A DNA stretch of 64,000 bases from a virus (taxonomy: Duplodnaviria; Caudoviricetes): IMG/VR virus record IMGVR_UViG_2061766007_002263, one strand, 5' to 3'. Positions 4,204-55,767 of this stretch are shown here, piece after piece; the stretch's first letter is position 1, and every line of letters begins with the position of its first letter. The notes below the pieces were generated by a model. That model saw nothing but the letters and a program-made list of their open reading frames with translations. It searched no databases and had not been told where the DNA came from. Position numbers and translations under genes: made by a program.

Positions 4204-4493
4204 CTTGCTGTCCTGAACTGTGGTCGGTTATGTGTTTCCAATATCGCGGTAATGATACATTTGGTATTGGCATCGCATACAACCGTAATTAAAATGTCTC
4301 TGAGCTTAAATGTAAAGTACTCCGAGTATCTGCCTTTATTGTCCACTTTGCGGTGGGGCTCAGTATTCTCGCATATTGACAGTATCAGAGCCTTATCGTC
4401 CTCGCTTAAATGGATACCAGTGTTTTTTAATATATTATCCGGGAAAGATTTTATAAACCTATATGGATTATGATGCGTTTCGTATCTCACCAC
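4200..4493 (-). CDS. hypothetical protein, possible small RNase-like (BECR) fold
   Basis: THH..YR N-terminus and ITVVCD...IIT C-terminal strands; weak. Confidence 0.5.
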   Translation of the reverse strand: MVRYETHHNPYRFIKSFPDNILKNTGIHLSEDDKALILSICENTEPHRKVDNKGRYSEYFTFKLRDILITVVCDANTKCIITAILETHNRPQFRTAR

Positions 4494-4953
4494 TTTTTAG
4501 GAATCTCTCTACGTTGGCAGTATAAATTTTTTTCAAATCCGGGTCACTGGCTATTTCAAACCCCGTCGTTATACCTACGGAATACGCTATACGGACGATT
4601 GTGTTTATGCATTCTGTAAGTACTTGCTCATATCCTATGTTCAGCACATAGTCAGTGCAGTTGTTCATGATTTCCTTAAGCATTATGTCTACTAGTTTTT
4701 TTCCGGTTTCTGTGTTTTTAAAATGCGCCGGGAGGAACTTCGTTACTTCCTTGGATTTTTTAAGCAATGTTTCCCTTGAGACTCTGGTTCTTTCGGACAT
4801 ATTTGCCATTATGCCGTCGTTAAATGATTCTAGTAATGTGCTGGAAATTAACGGAACAATTATATTACGGTCAAGAGTTTCATTCACCATGTTTACGATG
4901 TTGTCTACACGGTTTTTAAAAGCCTTTGATTCAATAAAATCACTCGATGTCAT
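4468..4953 (-). CDS. hypothetical protein, first gene of groEL operon
   Basis: GGAGG RBS; ACTAAATA at 4974-4981. Confidence 0.7.
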   Translation of the reverse strand: MTSSDFIESKAFKNRVDNIVNMVNETLDRNIIVPLISSTLLESFNDGIMANMSERTRVSRETLLKKSKEVTKFLPAHFKNTETGKKLVDIMLKEIMNNCTDYVLNIGYEQVLTECINTIVRIAYSVGITTGFEIASDPDLKKIYTANVERFLKSGEIRNAS

Positions 4954-5003
4954 TATAAATTAAAACCTCCGAATATTTAGTCTTCGGATTCAGAACTCAA
5001 AAA

Positions 5004-21097: not shown

Positions 21098-21140
21098 AAA
21101 AAATACCCCGGATTTTGGATTTAATCCGGGGCTTTCTTTT
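21098..21140. terminator. intrinsic terminator
   Basis: CCCCGGATT...AATCCGGGG stem flanked by A- and T-runs. Confidence 0.8.
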
Positions 21141-21148
21141 AAGAAAAC

Positions 21149-24100
21149 TTAATTAATTGAAAAGCGTTGTTTTTTTACATGCGTTTCTTTATGTGATTCA
21201 CGATAGACTTCCATGAAGAAATCTTCAATGGATTCGTCAAACTTGAATCTCATGTTACAGTAATTCGGGTCCAAGAATTTTTCGTCGTAATCGATTACTA
21301 TGTTTGTCATGTTTGTTATACCCTTGTCTATTAGTTCCTTTGATTTGACGATACTCTTACCAATAACGAATCCGTCATATACTGTAATGTTGTCACCGGG
21401 GTTGTCCCACATTAACGTAGTACCTTCATTGTCTGGTTTATAAAGTTTGATACCCTTAGCTTTAATAGCCGCTTGGAATGCATTCCAACTATCTTTAGTA
21501 ATATCCTTTATGTATTGACCTTTCAAGTTAACGTCGATTACTTTAAGGATATCTAGGTCAATATCAAACTCCTTAAAAAGCTTTTTCAATGATTCATACT
21601 TACCCTTGTTATTAAGCTCAGTAATGATGTCACTCATAAGTTTCTTATCTACGAGAATTACACGTCTTGTAGTATACCATTCCGGAATGTCATATGTTTC
21701 TTTGGAAACAGTATGATTCAGGTTGGCTGCTTCGATGTTCCTTATAAACATTGTCTCCCCCGGAATAAATACTTTCGAGAGACAACCACCAAGATTCGGA
21801 GAATCAATACCATAATCTTGATGTATCTTTTCTGATGTAAACTCACCAAGTACAATTCTTAAGTTAAGAACGGCTTTGTCGAATGCGTCTTTTTTTGCTG
21901 GGTCCGGATTCACAAGATAGTCATTGTATGCTTCGATGTTGATGTCGAGCTTATCACCAAGTCTTATAATTTGATTATAACAATTTTCATAGACTTTTTT
22001 TAATGGTGCAAGAAGTTTTACATTTGTAAATTCAAGACCATTTTTGAATTTCTCGCCACCGTTGTTCATTGACACCGTATTGTTATCTTTATAAATAAAA
22101 TAAAGACCTTGGTTACTGCGAATACTTCTAAGAAGTTCAAACGGTGTTTTGTCTACAGACCGGAAATCCTCATCATGCCCACGTCCAGAAAGCAGACCAT
22201 AAACAAAAGGATTCTTTGAAGAACCGTCCGCGTCGTTTCTAGCAATGTGAGTCATGTGTTGTGGAAGCCAAGCGGCTTTACGTCCGACCTTTGTTTTTCC
22301 TCCGACATAGCTGAGAACATTACGTACTGTAAGCGTAGGTTTGTCGATACTTGTATATACAAACTTTGCAAGATACATTACAGAAAGGAAACCACGGAAC
22401 TTCAATGCCTGGAACCAGAAGTTATCTTCAGGCGTTTCCATGGCTGTTTTATACTGTATCTGTATTCTTGTAGCCATAGCGGTTATGTCGTCTTGAAGCA
22501 TAATACGGTTTTCTACGTAGTCTTGTATGTTTTCCGGAGAAGCGATACTGTCTAACAAGCTTCTTTCATTATCGTCTTTTGAGTTGATAGGCGCGTTTAA
22601 TGATTGTGATGAGAATGCGTTGTTTATTTTAATTCTGGCTTCTTTCCAAAGATTATTTGTATCAATCATGTTTTGCCGTTTAACTGGGTCTTTTTCGTTT
22701 TCAATCTCGTCATCTTCATAATACTTTTTGCCATACAGTTGACTAATACCGGCTCTGTTAGCTCCACTTAATGTTACTGCTTTTAAGAAATTTCTAAAAT
22801 CTGTAGCAACAATGTTTGCGATGTATGAGAAAGGTTCAATTTGACATTTAACGGTAGTTACCTCATTTTTGAACTTTACAAAGTCTTCAATTTGTTCGTC
22901 TGTAAGGTCGTTCATGTCTTTCAAGCTCTTGATGCTGTCATCAGATATACCTTGTTTTGTAAGAGATACAACGTCTCCGTCAAAGCCTTTTGCTTTAGTT
23001 GCGCCAGTACCATGAACTTTTCTATGGATGTTGATGCTAAAATCTCCAATCTCGTTGGATTTCATTTCGCTGAACATAGCGTTCATCTTATTATAGACAT
23101 TACTACCGAATGCGGAGTTGTTGTTGAGCCATCCTGTGTCAAATATGCATAAAGGCCCGGCATTTGCATTGTCCAATGTTGCGTAGCCACGGAGTCTGTC
23201 GTCATAAAATGCTCTTACTGCTACACGTCCACCCAAGAAAGCATTGTAAGCGTCCGAAATCAAATCACGTAACATTTCAGTATCTGAAATGTCCGCCATC
23301 ATTTCTCCACGTCCTAAGAAGTAGAGAGCTCTATAAATGCTATCTTTTGAGCCGAATACTTTTGCTCCGGCAAGTGGCCATTTTCCGGCATATCCAGTTT
23401 TCGCTACTTTTATTAAAGACGGCGCAATCTTGGTGAACATGAACAAAAGAATGTTATTCTTGTATGTTTTTGGCTTGGCATTATTTGCCGGGTCTTCAAT
23501 TTCAGTCGAACCAGTAAGAATCTCATTTCTGGCTTCTTCTACATGTTTCTGTGTATCGAGGTAATGTTTCTTAACATATGAGTTTCTTTTGGTGCCTTCG
23601 TCACCAGATTCAAATACTACTTTAAGAATATCTTTTATTTTAGGGTTTTTATTATAGATTTCTACGCCAATTTTCCAAAGGACAAACTCGTTCATACAAG
23701 CTATCGTATTAAAATACGGCTCTTCTTTTTTAACGGTATCTCCAAAATGAATCGGCCATCCGTCAGGTGTCTGAAACATTACGGTTATTTCGTCTTTTTG
23801 CCCAGTACTGGTGAATCCGAAATATTTCTCATATTCATCAAAGTCTTTTAATGCAGTGTCATTAATGTTAAGTGCTTCTCTTATTACTTTATTGATACTC
23901 TCATATTTCTTTTTGGTAGAATTATTGGTTGATGTTTCGACGTTATCATTGAGTTCCAATGAACTCTGACCTTCATCTACTGAAGCATCAATAGCTGCTT
24001 TATCAAGAGCTTCTGTATCATTGCCGTCTTCAACCTGAGTTTTTTCGTCTTCTTCGGCTTCTTTTGTATTATTTTCAACACTATTCAAAGTGTCATTCGT

Positions 24101-24367
24101 CGCTTCGTCTTTTTCATCAGATATGTCAGTATTTTCGGCAGGTATGTCTTCTTGTTTGACATCTTCTGCTGGTATAGCGTTTAAGTCGTCTTTATATGTG
24201 TCCCAAAATTCCGCAAGCTCGTCCGGATTGTCCTTGACCATCTCATAGTTGTCTTCTATAGATTCCACGTCGTCTGGATGAGCTTTCAGGATTATGTCTA
24301 ATTTCTTTTCGTCAGTCAGAGCATTCTCTGATTCTTTGAAAAGCTGTGTAAAACGTATTTTCTTCAT
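21149..24367 (-). CDS. 1072-aa late protein with embedded sigma70-like region 2/3 motifs
   Basis: RDLISDAYNAFL, PFSYIANIVATDFRNFLK, SLNAPINSKDDNERSLLDSIASPE; acidic N-terminus; late motif 24408-24415. Confidence 0.55.
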   Translation of the reverse strand: MKKIRFTQLFKESENALTDEKKLDIILKAHPDDVESIEDNYEMVKDNPDELAEFWDTYKDDLNAIPAEDVKQEDIPAENTDISDEKDEATNDTLNSVENNTKEAEEDEKTQVEDGNDTEALDKAAIDASVDEGQSSLELNDNVETSTNNSTKKKYESINKVIREALNINDTALKDFDEYEKYFGFTSTGQKDEITVMFQTPDGWPIHFGDTVKKEEPYFNTIACMNEFVLWKIGVEIYNKNPKIKDILKVVFESGDEGTKRNSYVKKHYLDTQKHVEEARNEILTGSTEIEDPANNAKPKTYKNNILLFMFTKIAPSLIKVAKTGYAGKWPLAGAKVFGSKDSIYRALYFLGRGEMMADISDTEMLRDLISDAYNAFLGGRVAVRAFYDDRLRGYATLDNANAGPLCIFDTGWLNNNSAFGSNVYNKMNAMFSEMKSNEIGDFSINIHRKVHGTGATKAKGFDGDVVSLTKQGISDDSIKSLKDMNDLTDEQIEDFVKFKNEVTTVKCQIEPFSYIANIVATDFRNFLKAVTLSGANRAGISQLYGKKYYEDDEIENEKDPVKRQNMIDTNNLWKEARIKINNAFSSQSLNAPINSKDDNERSLLDSIASPENIQDYVENRIMLQDDITAMATRIQIQYKTAMETPEDNFWFQALKFRGFLSVMYLAKFVYTSIDKPTLTVRNVLSYVGGKTKVGRKAAWLPQHMTHIARNDADGSSKNPFVYGLLSGRGHDEDFRSVDKTPFELLRSIRSNQGLYFIYKDNNTVSMNNGGEKFKNGLEFTNVKLLAPLKKVYENCYNQIIRLGDKLDINIEAYNDYLVNPDPAKKDAFDKAVLNLRIVLGEFTSEKIHQDYGIDSPNLGGCLSKVFIPGETMFIRNIEAANLNHTVSKETYDIPEWYTTRRVILVDKKLMSDIITELNNKGKYESLKKLFKEFDIDLDILKVIDVNLKGQYIKDITKDSWNAFQAAIKAKGIKLYKPDNEGTTLMWDNPGDNITVYDGFVIGKSIVKSKELIDKGITNMTNIVIDYDEKFLDPNYCNMRFKFDESIEDFFMEVYRESHKETHVKKQRFSIN

Positions 24368-24424
24368 GTCTAGGAAATCCCCTTTTCAAAAAAGTTCGTG
24401 AATTATATAATTAGCGAAACTTTG

Positions 24425-24487: not shown

Positions 24488-26764
24488 TTAGCTGTTGATA
24501 ATTACAACGTCAAGGTTTTCATTTATCTCACTGTCGAGGGTATTATTAGCCTGAATATCCTCACGGTAATCTTGTGAAGTCGTGCTCAACGTAGCATTGT
24601 GATATGTATTGTATCCGCCCTCATGCTCGAATACAAGTCCGTTGTCCGTCCATTCGCCACAATCAAGAATAGAGTTGCTGTTCAATACATAACCAGAAGT
24701 ACCCGGCATTACATGAAGCAGCTCGGTTTCATTGTTTTCGCTTCCACGGAAGATAACGCTATTGTCTTTCTGAAGACCAGTTATACCAGTGGACTTATGG
24801 AACTTAAATCCAGCAAGATGTGATGACTCACCAGCAGAAGTGTGCTCAATAAGCTCAACCGGAGAATCTACGAGAGCCGCTACAGTACCGTCATTCTTAT
24901 ATCTTGGGATGTAAAAGTTGGAACCGTTTCCAATGTCTTCCAATGTAGCAAGAGTACCAGACTGTGCGGGAAGAAGAAGGGAGATGTCGCCTTCTGTGCT
25001 CTGCTCCGGATTCTGTGCGATGCTTACGCTGAGCGGGTCACCTTCTGTTTTTCCGGCAACACCTGATGCAGCTTCTACGCCACCAGTAATCTTTACGCCA
25101 CGAGCCTCATCAAATGTAAGAAGTCCGTCGTCCGTTTCGGAAACGCCTGTTTTCTTGAGAGTTTTGTTTCCAGCTTCTTTATAGAACTCACCAACGCTTG
25201 CCGCGTTAGTATCAGAAATTAAAGCAGCGTCTTTGCTGTGGATTGTGATTGTTTCGCCGTCGTCAGCATCGAGCTGAACTTCCGAGAGTCCAGTGCTTCC
25301 ACGCTCTGCACCTTCGAACTTAATTTCACCAACTACGCTCTGGATTGTAGACTGGTCTATTACGTCCTCATCTGCCGGTGAGTTGTAATTATCTATAATT
25401 TTGATTGAAGTAATAGGTGAAGTGTTGTCAATTACGGACCACTTGCTTTGTCCTTCATATACCAACCAATCTCCACTGTTGATGAATCCTTCGCTTGACC
25501 TTACATTACTGCTTACTGTGCTTGCCGTGTCCTCAAGCTTAATCTGCGGACCTGAATAGATGAAGTAATCACCTTGTACAAGCTCGGTCTCACCGTTCGT
25601 CTTATCAGTTCCCGTAGGGAGTACAAAGTTTTCTGCCGTACCAGAATAAGTATATCCACCGGCAAATACCATTGACTGAATAAGAGTGTCCGGCAACTGT
25701 GCAAGAATAATCTTGCCATGCTCGTCCAAGTCGGCTTTGGATTCAAACAACAAGTCAAGGGCTTCTTTTACGTTGGAAACGCCACTGTCTTGTGTATCCC
25801 AATTTGTGCTGTTGTTTGTATATGAATCATTACGACTTCCAGCGGAATAGTTCAATCTCGCTGAATCATGCGTACCGCCCGCAATCTTGGTAAAGTTGAG
25901 GTTTGACAGTGTAAGTGCATTGGCTGTACTGGTAGATGATGACGTTACAGCAAGGAAATCGCCTTCCTCAAGAACAATGTCAACTGTCGGGTCGGCGGTA
26001 TCACCCATCTGAATAGTAACGTTTTTACCTGCGGCAAGCTCACCTACTGAATAATAATAACCAGCTTTGATAGAGTAAGGGCTTGCAATCAAGTCGCTTG
26101 CAAGGATGGTTGTATTCGCATTGTCTTCCGTATCATATACACGGTTGTTCGTAAGGTCAACGTCGTCAACTGCGGCGTTTTTCTTGAACTTTACACCACC
26201 AAAAGCAAGTTTATTTCTGTCAAGCTCTACAATAGCTTCCTGGAGGTTTGTTGAGCTGAGGTTGGTGTTATTCGGGTTGAATGTGAGCTCGTATGATGTT
26301 CCACCACCACCATTTCCTACGCGAATCCATCCTGGCGCGTCGTCATGGAAGGTTCCCATGTGGCGGTAAAAGATGTCATTAGCAGGACGTGGCAAAGTAT
26401 CAAGATGATAATTTTCACCTACGTAGATAGCAAGGTCACCAGCATGAAACTCCGGTGTATCTGTTCCTGTTGAGTTGTTGTTTGACGAACCGAGCTGAAT
26501 ATCCTCGGTTATATAATAAACGCCACCTTTAATCGGATTTGAAGGCAGTCCTTCACCTGGCAGTGTCGGACGGATAAAAGATAGAACGCCTTGTCCACCG
26601 ATTTTTATCGCTTCACCGTTGCATCCGGCATATAATTCATATGTCAGATTGGAACTGTCATATTTCTTACCGTGGGTATAGTCAAGAAAAAGCTCGCCGT
26701 TCAATAATGGCTCATGACCTGCACGTATCTCTAACTTACCACGAGAGATTTGTAGCTGTTGCAT
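24488..26764 (-). CDS. tail fibre/spike-like protein (paralog of 26879..29794)
   Basis: QISRG start, KADLDEHGKIILAQLP, GDWLVY, ILDCG motifs. Confidence 0.65.
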   Translation of the reverse strand: MQQLQISRGKLEIRAGHEPLLNGELFLDYTHGKKYDSSNLTYELYAGCNGEAIKIGGQGVLSFIRPTLPGEGLPSNPIKGGVYYITEDIQLGSSNNNSTGTDTPEFHAGDLAIYVGENYHLDTLPRPANDIFYRHMGTFHDDAPGWIRVGNGGGGTSYELTFNPNNTNLSSTNLQEAIVELDRNKLAFGGVKFKKNAAVDDVDLTNNRVYDTEDNANTTILASDLIASPYSIKAGYYYSVGELAAGKNVTIQMGDTADPTVDIVLEEGDFLAVTSSSTSTANALTLSNLNFTKIAGGTHDSARLNYSAGSRNDSYTNNSTNWDTQDSGVSNVKEALDLLFESKADLDEHGKIILAQLPDTLIQSMVFAGGYTYSGTAENFVLPTGTDKTNGETELVQGDYFIYSGPQIKLEDTASTVSSNVRSSEGFINSGDWLVYEGQSKWSVIDNTSPITSIKIIDNYNSPADEDVIDQSTIQSVVGEIKFEGAERGSTGLSEVQLDADDGETITIHSKDAALISDTNAASVGEFYKEAGNKTLKKTGVSETDDGLLTFDEARGVKITGGVEAASGVAGKTEGDPLSVSIAQNPEQSTEGDISLLLPAQSGTLATLEDIGNGSNFYIPRYKNDGTVAALVDSPVELIEHTSAGESSHLAGFKFHKSTGITGLQKDNSVIFRGSENNETELLHVMPGTSGYVLNSNSILDCGEWTDNGLVFEHEGGYNTYHNATLSTTSQDYREDIQANNTLDSEINENLDVVIINS

Positions 26765-26878: not shown

Positions 26879-29794
26879 TTAAACATAAAGACCACAATCA
26901 ATTACCGAGTTATCAGTAAGCAATACACCGCTTGCTCCAGGCATTTCTACGTATACCGCTTTTTCTGGTAACGACGAATTATCTCTTGGGTTCATGTATT
27001 GTGTGCTTCTGGGGAACATAGTTCTTCCCGGAACTACATGAGTAAGGTTGGTGTCTTTATTTCCGAGAATAAGAGATTTCGTTACCATCAAGGATTTCGG
27101 TTTACTTATGAACCGTCCGTTTGCGCCTATTGCGGTTTCACCTACGATAGTGTCAGATTTGAATTCTATGTTGTCTGGCGTTCCGGTATTTTTGAATACC
27201 TTATTGTTTCCACTATCAAGCTCGAAATCGTCATAAAGCTCTTTTATGAAGTCACGGTCTCTGAGATTATAAAACTTATCGGACGATACATTTTGGCTAC
27301 CACCAAGTGTGCGAGTATCTTCGTCAACATTATGCACACCGTTGAGCAATGACTCAAAGAGCGAGTTTGAAACTTGCTCGATTTTAGAATCTATAAGTGA
27401 GATACGTGGGCTGTTTTCACCCGGAAATGTCTGAGGCTCGCCGTATATCGGAAGAATGTTCTTTGTACCATTGAACATTCTGTTGAGGTCTGTGTTATTT
27501 ACAAGTATACCTGATTCCGCAGGAAGATAGTTTGTAACATTCGAGGTAGTCTGATTGGGATGCGCAAAAATCTCGGAGAGAAGTTCTGTCTCAAGGAGCC
27601 GTCCTTCATTACTCAAATGTCCACCATTTGAAGCGTTAGGATTAAGGTTAGATTTCTGTCCTAACGTAATGTGTCTGGTTTCGATGTTGTTAACGTCGAT
27701 TACAGGCGCATGGAACTCTACGGATGCAACATCTATGTCAACATAGTTTGGAGACGATACGGTTTGATGCATATGCTCTTCGATAGAAGAGTTGTCAATG
27801 TAACCGTTACTATCATTTGCGCTTACTTTGGTCAAACGATTTTTGAGCAACGTCACGCCAGTAAGTTTTCCTACGAGTTTTGACGACTTTGTAGGAAGAT
27901 AAAAATTCGCCCCGTTTGCCTGAGCGTCGTCCGGACGTAAAGTTGCGCTGTTATATACAGTGCTTCCTTGTTCTGTAATTACGTCAAACTTGAGCCCGGT
28001 ATTTTCATTTACGTTTACGCCGTCCCGTACTACAAGCTTAGGTCTTAGATAGATATCACCATATACATATTCGTTGTAGGTATCCGAAGCATTACCAACA
28101 AACAAGTTAGAGTTCGTCTGTGTGATGTACGTATCACCGAACAACGGACTTAGATAGTTTTGTATTGTACTACGCTTTACCGTATTATTATTGCCGGTAT
28201 AAACTGGCAGGTATTTGTCAAGGTGCTCAATGTTCGGGTCCGCACCGTCATAGTCCACGAGCCTTACGCCAGCTACAGTTATTTTATTGTCTTGCTGCCA
28301 GAGAACAAGCTTATCGGAAGCTCCGAACGTAGGATTTCCGACTAGGGATACCTCAGTCGTAGTGGTAGCATAATCGGCTTTTCCGCTTGTATGAGTACCG
28401 TTTATAAAGAAATTAAGTGCGGTTAAGGAATCACTGTTATCTATGATTTCCCAACTTGCCTTGTTCGTTACGGGGTCAACCTGATATACAATCCAGTCAC
28501 CGTTATTGATTTCCTCGCATCTTGTGAACAAATCACCGACTGGTTGTGAGTCCTTGTCATAGTATTGTATATTCGTAATAACCGGCGTTGATTTTACGAT
28601 ATAGTAATCGCCAGGTTTGTTGCCACGTATAGCAGATGTTCCTTCTCCTGAGTCCTCTTCGTCACCAGCTATCTCGTCATTAGTTCTTCCGGTAGGCCAA
28701 GGATTCTGGTACGCCGGGTCATTTACGCCCTGCTCGTCCGTAACAGGATTCCATGTTCCCATGTACTGCATACCACCGATAACAGTGGAGTGCAACTGGC
28801 TTAACGGAATCTTTCCATTGCTGTCAAGCATGGCTTTATGACTTAACAGGTATGTAATGGCTTCCTGAACATTTGTAAGGTTTGCCGTTGACGACATATG
28901 CTCGCCACCGTCTTCACCAAATGTACCAATATCAGTCTGCTGCTGAACGGCAAGCGTCGGGTCAAAGTCTATCTGCTCAGCGTCTGTATACCCTGAAGGA
29001 ATAAGAGCCCACTGGTCTGTATCATTTTGCCAGATTACAAAATCACCCTTATGTGAAGTCCAAGTAGTAAGTACACCGGAATTGTTATTTCCAGTAAAGC
29101 TGAGGTTGTCTTCTACTACGAGGTATAATGAGCCGGCTGTAAGATGGTCTCTGGCAGAATCCTGATATGTCATCAATGTGGCATATGAGAAATCTCCACC
29201 GTTACCTATACGTCCACGATATTCGAGCTTGTGGTCATAAATGTCGTCAAGAGCAATCTTTACGTTTGTAATACCCGGTCTTTCCGGATGCGTATACTTT
29301 GTGTTTTTTGATAAGTTTCCAGAACCGTAAAGCTTGATGTACTGTACGTTTCTTGCCTGACCTACGTTGTCAAGCAAATCTGGTGCAATGTCATACTCCG
29401 CATGGGTTATAAGAAGGATATCATTTTTAAGGAATTCTTCGTCTTTGAATACGCCGTTCTCAGCGTCTTTGCTGAATATGAAGTAATCACCCTCACGAAC
29501 GAACGCAAACTTTATGTTAGTTATGTCCTGTTCTTCATCAATGAAGCCCCTGAATACCATTCCTTTATAAGACCTTTCACCGGCTATCGGCATTGGGTTC
29601 TCATAAGTGTTTCCAAGGGACGGCATACCTATATATAATGTACCCGTATCATACGGGAATCTTACGTCATTTCTGTATTGATTTTCAGAGTCATTTGAAT
29701 TATTTTTGGGTACCCAAAAGAGCTCAGCGCGTAAAAGGTTCTCAGGACCTTTGGCTCTCAGGCTACCTCTGGAAATTTGTATGTTAGATGCCAA
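26879..29794 (-). CDS. tail fibre/spike-like protein
   Basis: QISRG start, KAMLDSNGKIPLSQL, GDWIVY, VIDCG motifs. Confidence 0.65.
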   Translation of the reverse strand: MASNIQISRGSLRAKGPENLLRAELFWVPKNNSNDSENQYRNDVRFPYDTGTLYIGMPSLGNTYENPMPIAGERSYKGMVFRGFIDEEQDITNIKFAFVREGDYFIFSKDAENGVFKDEEFLKNDILLITHAEYDIAPDLLDNVGQARNVQYIKLYGSGNLSKNTKYTHPERPGITNVKIALDDIYDHKLEYRGRIGNGGDFSYATLMTYQDSARDHLTAGSLYLVVEDNLSFTGNNNSGVLTTWTSHKGDFVIWQNDTDQWALIPSGYTDAEQIDFDPTLAVQQQTDIGTFGEDGGEHMSSTANLTNVQEAITYLLSHKAMLDSNGKIPLSQLHSTVIGGMQYMGTWNPVTDEQGVNDPAYQNPWPTGRTNDEIAGDEEDSGEGTSAIRGNKPGDYYIVKSTPVITNIQYYDKDSQPVGDLFTRCEEINNGDWIVYQVDPVTNKASWEIIDNSDSLTALNFFINGTHTSGKADYATTTTEVSLVGNPTFGASDKLVLWQQDNKITVAGVRLVDYDGADPNIEHLDKYLPVYTGNNNTVKRSTIQNYLSPLFGDTYITQTNSNLFVGNASDTYNEYVYGDIYLRPKLVVRDGVNVNENTGLKFDVITEQGSTVYNSATLRPDDAQANGANFYLPTKSSKLVGKLTGVTLLKNRLTKVSANDSNGYIDNSSIEEHMHQTVSSPNYVDIDVASVEFHAPVIDVNNIETRHITLGQKSNLNPNASNGGHLSNEGRLLETELLSEIFAHPNQTTSNVTNYLPAESGILVNNTDLNRMFNGTKNILPIYGEPQTFPGENSPRISLIDSKIEQVSNSLFESLLNGVHNVDEDTRTLGGSQNVSSDKFYNLRDRDFIKELYDDFELDSGNNKVFKNTGTPDNIEFKSDTIVGETAIGANGRFISKPKSLMVTKSLILGNKDTNLTHVVPGRTMFPRSTQYMNPRDNSSLPEKAVYVEMPGASGVLLTDNSVIDCGLYV

Positions 29795-55270: not shown

Positions 55271-55404
55271 GGGAATTTCGGTATGTAAACTACGTTGTCT
55301 AAATGACGCGAGTATCTTCAAACGTTCCTTAAAACGTTCTCAGTATTTACAATAGGTTATGTCCTGAAATAAAGCGGCTATGTTTAAGTATTGACTAATT
55401 ATGT

Positions 55405-55767
55405 ATGAACAATCTGGAAAAGTTTTTTGAAGAAGTTTATAAGGAAGCTTGCACAAAGAAACCGATAAGAGTTACAAGAATTCTTTATGCGTCATTACCG
55501 GAAAACATGCAAAGAAAAGAGGACTGGACAGATAGATTCTATAATTTATCTAATGATACATTAAAAGAAATGGGTATCTTTGGTGAAAATAATACAAAGA
55601 AAATCCAAGACGCTCTTCAAAAGAAGTTTGGAAGTGTGTCTACAAAATTTATTGTAAAGAAAGACCAAGAGGTTGTTGAACAAATGGGTGGAACTGGGTT
55701 TGATAAGAGTTCCCATGAAGGTCTTTATAACGCACAAGACCATAAAACAAATCCTAATTTAAAGTAA
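55405..55767 (+). CDS. late hypothetical protein (putative internal head protein)
   Basis: ACTAATTA 3 nt before ATG; N-terminal FFEEVYKEA. Confidence 0.65.
   Translation: MNNLEKFFEEVYKEACTKKPIRVTRILYASLPENMQRKEDWTDRFYNLSNDTLKEMGIFGENNTKKIQDALQKKFGSVSTKFIVKKDQEVVEQMGGTGFDKSSHEGLYNAQDHKTNPNLK

What the first reader, a model, noticed from the sequence alone, without database searches (positions are those of the whole stretch)
21149..24367. Giant late-expressed sigma-like protein that may be packaged in the virion
Seen: in sigma70 order, RDLISDAYNAFL (region 2.2-like, ~23250), PFSYIANIVATDFRNFLK (2.3/2.4-like, ~22800) and SLNAPINSKDDNERSLLDSIASPE (3.2 finger-like, ~22570), separated by large inserts. 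The gene lies among structural genes behind a late motif, has an acidic disordered leader and repeated ...E(S/A) motifs (LFKES, IREA, VYRES). Inference: a protease-processed head protein injected with the DNA to redirect RNA polymerase to early promoters. I know of no described virion-delivered sigma factor.
Basis: partly seen in the sequence, partly recalled or inferred. Interest (0 to 1): 0.82.

Follow-up and report, generated by a model that had tools for sequence, protein, structure and literature searches.

The report
Tagged phage cargo protein, not sigma
This is a real, conserved late gene for a 1072-residue protein of no known family in an uncultured large rumen phage; both its ends carry short peptides like the tag phage T4 uses to load proteins into its head, so it is probably packed into the capsid, but tests for a sigma factor found only one short sigma-like loop.

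Summary
The ORF (21149-24367, minus strand) is a real gene. It has its own late-type promoter motif, a strong terminator behind it, and about 14 syntenic homologues (22-41% identity) in uncultured phage contigs of up to 246 kb.

The sigma reading fails in nearly every test:
- No Sigma70 Pfam hit in any of 14 family members, even at E<=10.
- Profile-profile comparison with 16 bacterial and phage sigmas aligns only 30 columns, the acidic region-3.2-like loop (residues 582-612). Probability is 10-40% and P is 3e-4 to 3e-3.
- Splicing out the proposed insert adds nothing, so the "2.2" and "2.3/2.4" motifs carry no signal.
- A confident AlphaFold model of residues 150-620 (pTM 0.77) has no sigma-2 match above noise and no PDB neighbour at all.

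The packaging idea has circumstantial support. The most conserved segment is the 12-residue N-terminus, MxKxRFTQLFxE|S. It and the C-terminal FFxEVFRE|A match the T4 capsid-targeting and cleavage signal (MKTYQEFIAE|A) at its four key positions. The same tag starts an unrelated 120-residue late protein (55405-55767). T4 Alt is likewise trimmed at both ends.

This scan has already reported T4-like capsid tags on other giant phages. Packaging and function remain untested.

The parts
24408..24415 (-). Late-type promoter-like motif GCTAATTA, 41 nt upstream of the start codon
   Evidence: The motif class is enriched 16-fold just upstream of co-oriented gene starts.
21149..24367 (-). Whole gene: 1072 codons plus stop, a monocistronic late unit
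   Evidence: There are 14 full-length homologues with conserved synteny.
24332..24367 (-). N-terminal tag, residues 1-12 (MKKIRFTQLFKE|S). Candidate capsid-targeting sequence with a cleavage site after Glu12
   Evidence: It is the most conserved segment of the protein, with mean column conservation 0.83. F10 and E12 are invariant. It matches the T4 tag MKTYQEFIAE|A at positions 4, 7, 8 and 10.
24170..24331 (-). Small conserved helical domain, residues 13-66. It contains a third tag-like motif, EFWDTYKDD (F54, Y58 and D60 invariant or nearly so)
   Evidence: pLDDT 84-87; conservation; sequence.
23924..24169 (-). Acidic disordered linker, residues 67-148, variable in length among homologues
   Evidence: 34% Asp+Glu, pLDDT below 50, largely absent in P0009 and P0002.
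22610..23923 (-). Core alpha/beta domain, residues 149-586, with no detectable structural or sequence relative.
   Evidence: The AF2 domain model has pLDDT 78 and pTM 0.77. Foldseek finds nothing at E<=0.001. The best VIA-align Z is 4.5 among 48,161 chains. Many polar residues are invariant.
22532..22603 (-). Acidic flexible loop, residues 589-612 (SLxxPxxGKDxDxxSxxDxIA). This is the only stretch that resembles sigma factors (region 3.2)
   Evidence: hhalign gives 30 columns, P 3e-4 to 3e-3 and probability 10-40%. NCBIfam TIGR02980 gives E 0.01 and 15.5 bits against a cut-off of 234. PDB SigA 8x6f_E gives E 0.53. pLDDT is below 50.
21848..22537 (-). Helical region, residues 611-840. Long helices pack as a spectrin-like three-helix bundle, interrupted by a disordered insert at 689-740
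   Evidence: VIA-align Z is about 8 to generic three-helix bundles over 614-809. The tool rates that level as a common arrangement for helical bundles. Secondary structure.
21248..21847 (-). Poorly conserved, low-confidence C-terminal region, residues 841-1040
   Evidence: Conservation 0.34; pLDDT mostly below 50.
21152..21247 (-). C-terminal tag region, residues 1041-1072 (ESIEDFFMEVYRE|SHKETHVKKQRFSIN). Second candidate targeting and cleavage signal
   Evidence: Conservation 0.62, with F1051 and E1057 invariant. It closely matches the N-terminus of P0019. T4 Alt is processed at both termini.
21105..21132 (-). Intrinsic terminator after the gene: 10-bp stem with 6 G-C pairs, followed by a T run
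55405..55767 (+). Unrelated 120-residue late protein (P0019) that starts with the same tag, MNNLEKFFEEVYKE|A. Second candidate capsid cargo
   Evidence: The late motif ACTAATTA at 55394-55401 ends 4 nt before its start codon.

Best explanation
The gene encodes a roughly 122-kDa, mostly alpha-helical late protein of a new family. The family is confined to a clade of uncultured large (about 240 kb) rumen and gut phages.

Proposed mechanism (inferred, not shown):
1. Short amphipathic peptides at both ends act like the T4 capsid-targeting sequence. They are MxKxRFTQLFxE|S at the N-terminus and FFxEVFRE|A/S near the C-terminus.
2. They bind the assembling prohead core, so the protein is enclosed in the capsid.
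3. The prohead protease cuts after the conserved Glu residues (Glu12 and Glu1057) and frees the mature protein.
4. The mature protein leaves the capsid with the DNA at infection.

In processing layout it resembles T4 Alt, a large injected protein trimmed at both ends. Its activity in the host is unknown. It is not a sigma factor. The only sigma-like feature is a flexible acidic loop (residues 589-612) that resembles the sigma region 3.2 linker.
For: Shown here:
- It is a real, conserved, separately transcribed late gene.
- The first 12 residues are the most conserved segment (0.83, against 0.3-0.6 elsewhere). F10, E12, F1051 and E1057 are invariant in 14 homologues that share only 22-41% identity.
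- The strict pattern F..[LVI][FY][KR]E[SA] occurs only 3 times in the six-frame translation of 64 kb. All three are at protein ends: both ends of this protein and the N-terminus of the unrelated 120-residue late protein P0019.
- None of the surrounding tail genes carries the tag, here or in two related loci.
- T4 IPII and IPIII start with MKTYQEFIAE|A.

From the literature (PMC9026906, section 2.6): residues 4 and 7 of the T4 tag drive targeting and residues 8 and 10 drive processing. T4 Alt is processed by gp21 at both termini. Giant-phage gp21 homologues also cut after Glu. The tags here have an aromatic residue at 4, hydrophobic residues at 7 and 8, Glu at 10, then Ser or Ala.

The acidic disordered region after the tag is reminiscent of propeptides (my own knowledge of T4 and phiKZ head proteins).
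Against: - No virion proteomics exist. The phage is uncultured, and no cultured phage has a homologue.
- The prohead protease could not be identified. The only protease seen near the window is ClpP-like (PF00574), not the gp21/S77 type that cuts after Glu.
- Nothing in the window shows that the phage is T4-like.
- The gene sits in a conserved tail-gene neighbourhood, not beside head genes.
- The best tag copy is C-terminal. Cutting after its Glu would remove only 15 residues and leave the tag on the protein.
- The tag pattern was defined after seeing the examples, so its rarity is not a formal probability.
Confidence: 0.45

Rival explanations
1. It is a tail-module protein: a structural or assembly component of the tail, for example a tail-lumen or tape-measure-associated protein, or a connector for the fibres. 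On this reading the conserved terminal peptides are docking motifs for tail partners and not capsid tags.
For: The gene order is strictly conserved in relatives as distant as about 23% identity: fibre-like protein, then this gene, then a 359-362-residue putative chaperone, then a 1076-1218-residue putative tape measure, then hub and baseplate-sized genes. It shares the late motif with the tail genes. Weak, non-significant Foldseek rows include tape measures and internal virion proteins.
Against: None of the neighbouring tail genes carries the tag, whereas an unrelated small protein 31 kb away does. The gene has its own promoter motif and a terminator directly behind it, and a hairpin with a T run seen by eye ahead of its promoter motif, which suggests it is not translationally coupled to the tail genes. 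The globular alpha/beta core and the acidic disordered leader do not look like known tail tube, sheath or tape-measure architecture.
Confidence: 0.25
2. One reading: a highly diverged sigma factor with large inserts, or a sigma-finger mimic, carried in the virion and injected to redirect host RNA polymerase to the phage's unusual early promoters.
For: - The loop at 582-612 resembles sigma region 3.2 in every library tried. hhalign against 16 sigmas gives P 3e-4 to 3e-3 and probability 10-40%. NCBIfam SigB/F/G gives E 0.01. PDB SigA gives E 0.53.
- Protein-language-model neighbours of residues 165-800 and of 340-700 are mainly (165-800; the first hit there is an unnamed hypothetical protein) or, among the rows shown, almost only (340-700) phage sigma-factor clusters, but at scores of 0.80-0.83, below the tool's lead level.
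- A Streptomyces HrdB chain is the only long alignment among the top 50 rows of the wide structure search (Z 4.4, 150 residues, rmsd 6.2).
- Earlier notes on this genome report early promoters with an odd -35-like box (AGGATA-N15-TATAAT). I did not check those notes.
- T4 Alt is a precedent for an injected protein that acts on RNA polymerase.
Against: - No Sigma70_r2, r3 or r4 hit in any of 14 members at E<=10.
- hhalign never extends beyond 30 columns. Removing the proposed 115-residue insert (residues 391-505) between the '2.2' and '2.3' strings leaves the score unchanged (35.1 against 35.8), so those strings carry no sigma signal.
- Comparison with T4 gp55 gives probability 0.6%.
- An HMM built from E. 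coli sigmas scores about 0 bits on all members.
- The HrdB structural match is no better than matches to glutamate transporters (Z 3.7-4.1, 183-192 residues aligned), so it is noise.
- The segment after the loop is modelled as a spectrin-like three-helix bundle and not as a sigma-4 helix-turn-helix.
- Real long phage sigmas of 429-600 residues are found easily by tblastn with RpoD, whereas this protein finds no phage record by tblastn at all.
Confidence: 0.05
3. It is a late protein that acts during assembly but is not in the finished particle. It could be a large prohead core or scaffold component that is degraded or expelled, or a cytoplasmic late factor.
For: It has a late motif, an acidic helical N-terminal part and Glu-Ser/Ala sites. 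These features are also typical of scaffold and core proteins that are cut and lost, such as T4 gp22, gp67 and gp68 (my own knowledge, and for the core-binding role of the tags).
Against: A 440-residue conserved globular core with many invariant polar residues is unusual for a scaffold. There are few internal conserved cleavage motifs. The gene is not next to head genes.
Confidence: 0.15

Closest known systems
Phage T4 Alt (injected ADP-ribosyltransferase, about 76 kDa)
   Same: A large late protein that is carried in the head and trimmed by the prohead protease at both the N- and the C-terminus (PMC9026906). By my own knowledge, it is injected with the DNA and acts on the host RNA polymerase. 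The two-ended tag layout matches this protein.
   Different: There is no sequence or fold similarity, and no ADP-ribosyltransferase motif or Pfam hit. Packaging and cleavage are not shown here. The host target is unknown.
T4 internal proteins IPI, IPII and IPIII with the 10-residue capsid-targeting sequence MKTYQEFIAE
   Same: A short N-terminal peptide with an aromatic residue at position 4, hydrophobic residues at 7 and 8, Glu at 10, then a small residue. The same tag appears on unrelated late proteins.
   Different: The tag here starts two residues later (12 residues) and has a different consensus (RFTQLFxE, FFxEVFRE). It also occurs at a C-terminus. The cargo is ten times larger than an internal protein. 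A gp21-type protease was not found or searchable.
Ejection and inner-body proteins of giant phages (phiKZ, 201phi2-1, SPN3US)
   Same: Large, mostly orphan head proteins of jumbo phages that are cleaved after Glu by a gp21 homologue. The propeptides are removed and the proteins enter the cell (PMC9026906, PMC7411985).
   Different: No homology to any cultured phage protein. The reported phiKZ-type motif, small residue-x-Glu (my own recollection), differs from the hydrophobic-x-Glu seen here.
Sigma70-family factors, region 3.2 linker (including the long phage sigmas of Herelleviridae and Vibrio phages)
   Same: An acidic flexible loop, SLxxPxGxDxDxxxxDxI, that follows a helix.
   Different: No region 2, 3.0/3.1 or 4 was detectable by sequence or by model. 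Genuine long phage sigmas keep a normal sigma core at the N-terminus.

Membership tests
Sigma70 family of RNA polymerase sigma factors | Sigma-2 domain (regions 2.1-2.4, Pfam Sigma70_r2 PF04542) detectable by sequence | tested here: not met
   No hit in any of 14 family members at E<=10. hhalign against 4 and against 16 sigma sequences never aligns region 2. Splicing out the proposed insert does not raise the score. An HMM built from E. coli sigmas scores about 0 bits.
Sigma70 family of RNA polymerase sigma factors | Sigma-4 domain (regions 4.1-4.2, helix-turn-helix; PF04545 or PF08281) | tested here: not met
   No Pfam hit. Residues 611-809 are modelled as long helices that match three-helix bundles at Z about 8.
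Sigma70 family of RNA polymerase sigma factors | Sigma-2 fold in the three-dimensional structure | tested here: inconclusive
   The domain model has pTM 0.77. Foldseek against PDB finds nothing. The wide VIA-align search lists HrdB 7vpd_F at Z 4.4, rmsd 6.2 and 150 residues, which is no better than unrelated transporters at Z 3.7-4.1. The alignment behind the model is shallow (14 sequences).
Sigma70 family of RNA polymerase sigma factors | Region 3.2 acidic linker | tested here: inconclusive
   Local resemblance only: hhalign P 3e-4 to 3e-3 over 30 columns, TIGR02980 at E 0.01 and 15.5 bits against a cut-off of 234, SigA at E 0.53.
Sigma70 family of RNA polymerase sigma factors | Binds core RNA polymerase and confers promoter specificity | not testable with these tools
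The host is unknown.
T4 gp55-type late sigma | Sequence similarity to gp55 | tested here: not met
   hhalign probability 0.6%, 13 columns.
T4-type capsid-targeted, protease-processed head cargo (internal proteins, Alt) | Terminal peptide of about 10 residues with an aromatic at position 4, hydrophobic residues at 7 and 8, Glu at 10, followed by a small residue | tested here: met
   N-tag: F6, L9, F10, E12|S13. C-tag: F1051, V1054, Y1055, E1057|S1058. Both are conserved in the family. The T4 reference was read from the T4 genome. The roles of the positions come from PMC9026906.
T4-type capsid-targeted, protease-processed head cargo (internal proteins, Alt) | The same tag shared by unrelated proteins of the same phage | tested here: met
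T4-type capsid-targeted, protease-processed head cargo (internal proteins, Alt) | Late expression together with the structural genes | tested here: met
   The late-type motif lies upstream of this gene, of P0019 and of the tail genes. This is a promoter motif only; there are no expression data.
T4-type capsid-targeted, protease-processed head cargo (internal proteins, Alt) | A Glu-specific prohead protease (gp21/S77 type) in the same genome | not testable with these tools
   The head module lies outside the window and no whole genome is held. The public contig gave a gene list without DNA, showing only a ClpP-like protease.
T4-type capsid-targeted, protease-processed head cargo (internal proteins, Alt) | Presence of the processed protein in the virion | not testable with these tools
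   The phage is uncultured. It has no homologue in cultured phage genomes or in IMG/VR.

The most novel reading that the evidence does not exclude
The protein is capsid cargo that is injected with the DNA and acts on host RNA polymerase through its conserved sigma-3.2-like acidic loop. It would do so by inserting the loop into the active-site or RNA-exit channel as a sigma-finger mimic, or as a very diverged sigma. This would help the phage's unusual early promoters to be read before any phage gene is expressed.
Probability: 0.07. Interest if true: 0.8.

Novelty: new member of a known kind. Interest (0 to 1): 0.35.

Why it matters
If the tags work as in T4, the packaged and probably injected proteins of this uncultured phage clade could be predicted from sequence. 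This 122-kDa protein would be their largest cargo. It has a conserved globular core of no known fold and unknown activity, which makes it a candidate host-takeover or anti-defence factor. A virion-delivered sigma factor would have been a first, but the evidence here does not support that claim. The lasting results are narrower: a new protein family, a two-ended T4-like tag in a phage that is not obviously T4-like, and a clear negative result on the sigma idea.

Tried and rejected
Searches on the protein that led nowhere:
- Pfam, PHROGs and NCBIfam on the protein and about 38 window proteins gave no family for the target. For the neighbours they found only GroEL, helicases, a methyltransferase, a transposase and a GNAT.
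- tblastn against 50,697 phage records found no match.
- IMG/VR viral contigs held no relative.
- A search for shorter relatives or stand-alone sigma-sized proteins with the family profile found only a fragment of the same protein.

Structure searches:
- With the full-length model, Foldseek against PDB and BFVD gave only generic helical rows. The wide VIA-align search gave generic three-helix bundles for residues 614-809.
- With the domain model, Foldseek PDB, the VIA wide search and the VIA second look gave nothing above Z 4.5.
- The ESM Atlas structure library was not available.

Sigma-specific comparisons:
- hhalign against E. coli sigmas, T4 gp55 and a 16-member sigma profile that includes 12 phage sigmas, with and without the proposed insert.
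- hmmsearch with an HMM built from E. coli sigmas.
- I considered a sigma-4-like reading of 'PxxTVRNxL' (residues 677-685). I rejected it because the spacing leaves no room for the first helix of the helix-turn-helix, and the model shows a long-helix bundle.
- I considered a DxDxDG calcium loop for residues 596-603. I rejected it because the Gly and Asp pattern is not conserved.

Reaching the head genes:
- The left-edge ORF is not on record.
- The 104-kb public contig gave a gene list but no DNA, so the head module and the reported tagged NUDIX could not be read.
Full report
**1. The object**

The window carries one uninterrupted ORF at 21149-24367 on the minus strand, 1072 codons long. It stands as its own unit.
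- Upstream, the stop codon of the preceding 758-residue gene is followed by a hairpin with a T run, seen by eye.
- Next comes the octamer GCTAATTA (24408-24415), then a purine-rich stretch, then the ATG.
- Downstream, a 10-bp stem with 6 G-C pairs and a T run forms a terminator at 21132-21105.
- The octamer belongs to the class RCTAADYW. That class is under-represented overall: 37 copies against about 70 in shuffles.
- Yet 16 of the 37 copies lie within 60 nt upstream of a co-oriented gene start, where about 1 is expected. These starts include most of the large leftward genes, this gene, and the small gene at 55405.
- I therefore accept "behind a late motif" as a real shared promoter-like signal. 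No expression data exist.

**2. The surroundings**

- None of the large leftward genes (378, 1019, 689, 971, 758, 1072, 359, 1218, 432, 106, 437, 254, 479 and 1885 residues) has a real Pfam, PHROG or NCBIfam match.
- The 758- and 971-residue proteins are paralogues (E 3e-12). They share an N-terminal "QISRGxL...LLxxELF". By my own knowledge this resembles the common N-terminal domain of phage tail fibres.
- The 359- and 1218-residue proteins are read as chaperone and tape measure on size and order only.
- The right half of the window holds replication genes: DnaB-like and DnaC-like proteins, a helicase and a methyltransferase. A GroEL lies at the left.
- Earlier notes on this genome describe a large rumen phage whose capsid, portal and sheath genes lie 30-55 kb to the left of this window. 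I could not read that DNA.

**3. Relatives**

- An exhaustive phmmer run over 1.84 billion representatives found 9 proteins. Word-indexed searches added more.
- In all there are 14 full-length homologues of 924-1072 residues at 22-41% identity. All come from metagenomes, on contigs of up to 245,892 bases.
- No cultured phage genome and no IMG/VR contig has a relative.
- In two relatives whose DNA could be read, the order is conserved: fibre-like protein, this gene, a 360-362-residue protein, a small ORF, a 1076-1085-residue protein, then proteins of 430-444, 99-106, 437-438 and 250-255 residues. The genes further upstream differ.

**4. Anatomy**

| Residues | Feature |
|---|---|
| 1-12 | MKKIRFTQLFKE, the most conserved segment of the protein (0.83). 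F10 and E12 are invariant. |
| 13-66 | Small helical domain (pLDDT 84-87). Contains a tag-like EFWDTYKDD. |
| 67-148 | Acidic (34% Asp+Glu), disordered, variable in length. |
| 149-586 | Alpha/beta core, modelled with pLDDT 78 and pTM 0.77 when folded alone. Many invariant polar residues: E180, K191, N226, E227, N262, K313, D372, R385, D410, N526, T532, N571. |
| 587-610 | Flexible acidic loop. |
| 611-840 | Long helices that pack as a three-helix bundle, with a disordered insert. |
| 841-1040 | Poorly conserved and poorly modelled. |
| 1041-1072 | ESIEDFFMEVYRESHKETHVKKQRFSIN, conserved again (0.62). F1051 and E1057 are invariant. |

**5. Is it a sigma factor?**

The three quoted strings are present, at residues 367-378, 512-529 and 589-612. 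I tested the sigma reading in eight ways.

- (a) Pfam. No Sigma70 domain in the protein, nor in any of the 14 members at E<=10.
- (b) Profile against PDB sequences. B. subtilis-type SigA (8x6f_E) appears at E 0.53, aligned only over the acidic loop. The phmmer hits to RpoD at E about 2 align the acidic leader to the acidic part of sigma70, so they reflect composition.
- (c) NCBIfam. The SigB/F/G model gives E 0.01 and 15.5 bits against a cut-off of 234, over residues 579-634 only.
- (d) hhalign.
  - The family profile against four E. coli sigmas gives probability 4% over 39 columns.
  - Against a 16-member profile that includes 12 phage sigmas fetched from the phage collection, it gives probability 14%, P 0.002 and 30 columns.
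  - With only residues 330-720 as the query, probability is 34%.
  - The first two strings therefore contribute nothing. All the signal is in the loop.
- (e) T4 gp55. Probability 0.6%.
- (f) An HMM built from E. coli sigmas scores about 0 bits on every member.
- (g) Structure.
  - The domain model has no Foldseek match.
  - In the wide VIA-align search the best Z is 4.5, for single helices. The sigma HrdB (7vpd_F) appears at Z 4.4, rmsd 6.2, with 150 residues aligned.
  - Glutamate transporters reach Z 3.7-4.1 with 183-192 residues aligned. The HrdB row is therefore at noise level.
- (h) Language-model neighbours. For residues 165-800 and for 340-700 they are mainly (165-800; the top row there is an unnamed hypothetical protein) or, among the rows shown, almost only (340-700) phage sigma clusters. 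The scores are 0.80-0.83, with about 100 of 256 features shared. The tool says a third of shuffled proteins reach that level.

It is notable that every weak signal points to the same family, so I do not set the sigma idea to zero. The signals are not independent, however, because most trace back to one 30-residue loop. Two defining domains were tested and not found.

Real "long" phage sigmas exist: 429-600 residues in Herelleviridae and Vibrio phages. They keep a normal sigma core that tblastn finds at once. This protein finds no phage record by tblastn at all.

**6. Is it packaged and processed?**

- T4 IPII and IPIII begin with MKTYQEFIAE followed by Ala. I read this from the T4 genome.
- The review PMC9026906 states three relevant points. 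The first ten residues suffice for capsid targeting. Residues 4 and 7 matter for targeting and residues 8 and 10 for processing. Alt is processed by gp21 at both termini. Giant-phage gp21 homologues also cut after Glu.
- Aligned on the Glu, the tags here place matching residues at all four positions:

| Tag | Pos. 4 (aromatic) | Pos. 7 (hydrophobic) | Pos. 8 (hydrophobic) | Pos. 10 (Glu) | Next residue |
|---|---|---|---|---|---|
| N-terminal | F6 | L9 | F10 | E12 | S13 |
| C-terminal | F1051 | V1054 | Y1055 | E1057 | S1058 |

- The strict pattern F..[LVI][FY][KR]E[SA] occurs three times in the six-frame translation of the window. All three are at protein ends: the two ends of this protein and the N-terminus of P0019 (MNNLEKFFEEVYKE|A), an unrelated 120-residue protein behind the same late motif.
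- No tail gene carries the tag, here or in two related loci.
I did not check it.
- The scan has reported T4-like tags on many proteins of other giant phages, so the kind of feature is not new to the scan.

Weak points:
- The pattern was derived from the examples.
- The C-terminal copy would stay on the protein after cutting.
- The protease is unknown. A ClpP-like gene lies 2-3 kb left of the window.
- Nothing in the window shows that the phage is T4-like.
- There are no particle data.

**7. Verdict**

- Most likely (0.45): a capsid-targeted, end-trimmed internal protein that leaves with the DNA. Its processing layout is Alt-like and its activity is unknown.
- Rival (0.25): a tail-module structural or assembly protein whose termini dock to tail partners.
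- Rival (0.15): an assembly-only late protein.
- Rival (0.05): the sigma or sigma-mimic model.

The core domain has no sequence or structural relative, which is of some interest in itself. The headline claim of a virion-delivered sigma factor is not supported.

Noticed in passing
window 55394-55767 (+): A 120-residue protein (P0019) starts with MNNLEKFFEEVYKE|A, the same tag as the C-terminus of the 1072-residue protein. The late motif ACTAATTA ends only 4 nt before its ATG, so the mRNA would be almost leaderless. It is a candidate small internal protein.
   Followed up: partly
window 24488-26764 (-) and 26879-29794 (-): The 758- and 971-residue proteins are paralogues (E 3e-12). They share an N-terminal QISRGxL...LLxxELF and a C-terminal MPGxSGxxLxxNSxxDCG. 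They look like tail fibres. In a related phage the region upstream of the single 785-residue copy is replaced by unrelated small genes.
   Followed up: partly
window-wide; examples at 4974, 10694, 12173, 19586, 21050, 26800, 34950, 36311, 44250: The octamer RCTAADYW occurs at half the number expected in shuffles. Even so, 16 of its 37 copies sit within 60 nt upstream of co-oriented gene starts, several only 4-7 nt before the start codon. It is a -10-only late-type promoter with some leaderless genes.
   Followed up: partly
about 2-3 kb left of the window start (gene list of a 104-kb Logan contig from SRR094437, no DNA): A 316-residue ClpP-family protease (PF00574, with a faint NfeD hit) lies next to genes of 134, 458, 102 and 570 residues. 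It could be the prohead protease of this phage.
   Followed up: no
window 22610-23923 (-), residues 149-586: The confidently modelled core domain (pTM 0.77) has no PDB neighbour above Z 4.5 in an all-against-48,161-chain search. It may be a new fold, though the alignment has only 14 sequences.
   Followed up: partly
window 23678-23716 (-), residues 218-230: YFNTIACMNEFVL resembles T4 gp55 AYITQACFNAFVQ (6 of 13 identical). This is the only stretch hhalign pairs with gp55, at probability 0.6%, so it is probably chance.
   Followed up: yes
L014, L015, L017, L018 (Vibrio phage D495; Bacillus phages SBSphiJ6, Moonbeam, BC01): Genes in cultured phages, most of them annotated as sigma factors (SBSphiJ6's as a hypothetical protein), run to 429-600 residues. 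They have a normal sigma core at the N-terminus and a long C-terminal extension of unknown role.
   Followed up: no
window 4468-4953 (-): A 161-residue protein just downstream of the 1885-residue gene starts with MTSSDFIE|S. This is a shorter, weaker version of the hydrophobic-x-Glu-Ser end motif.
   Followed up: no
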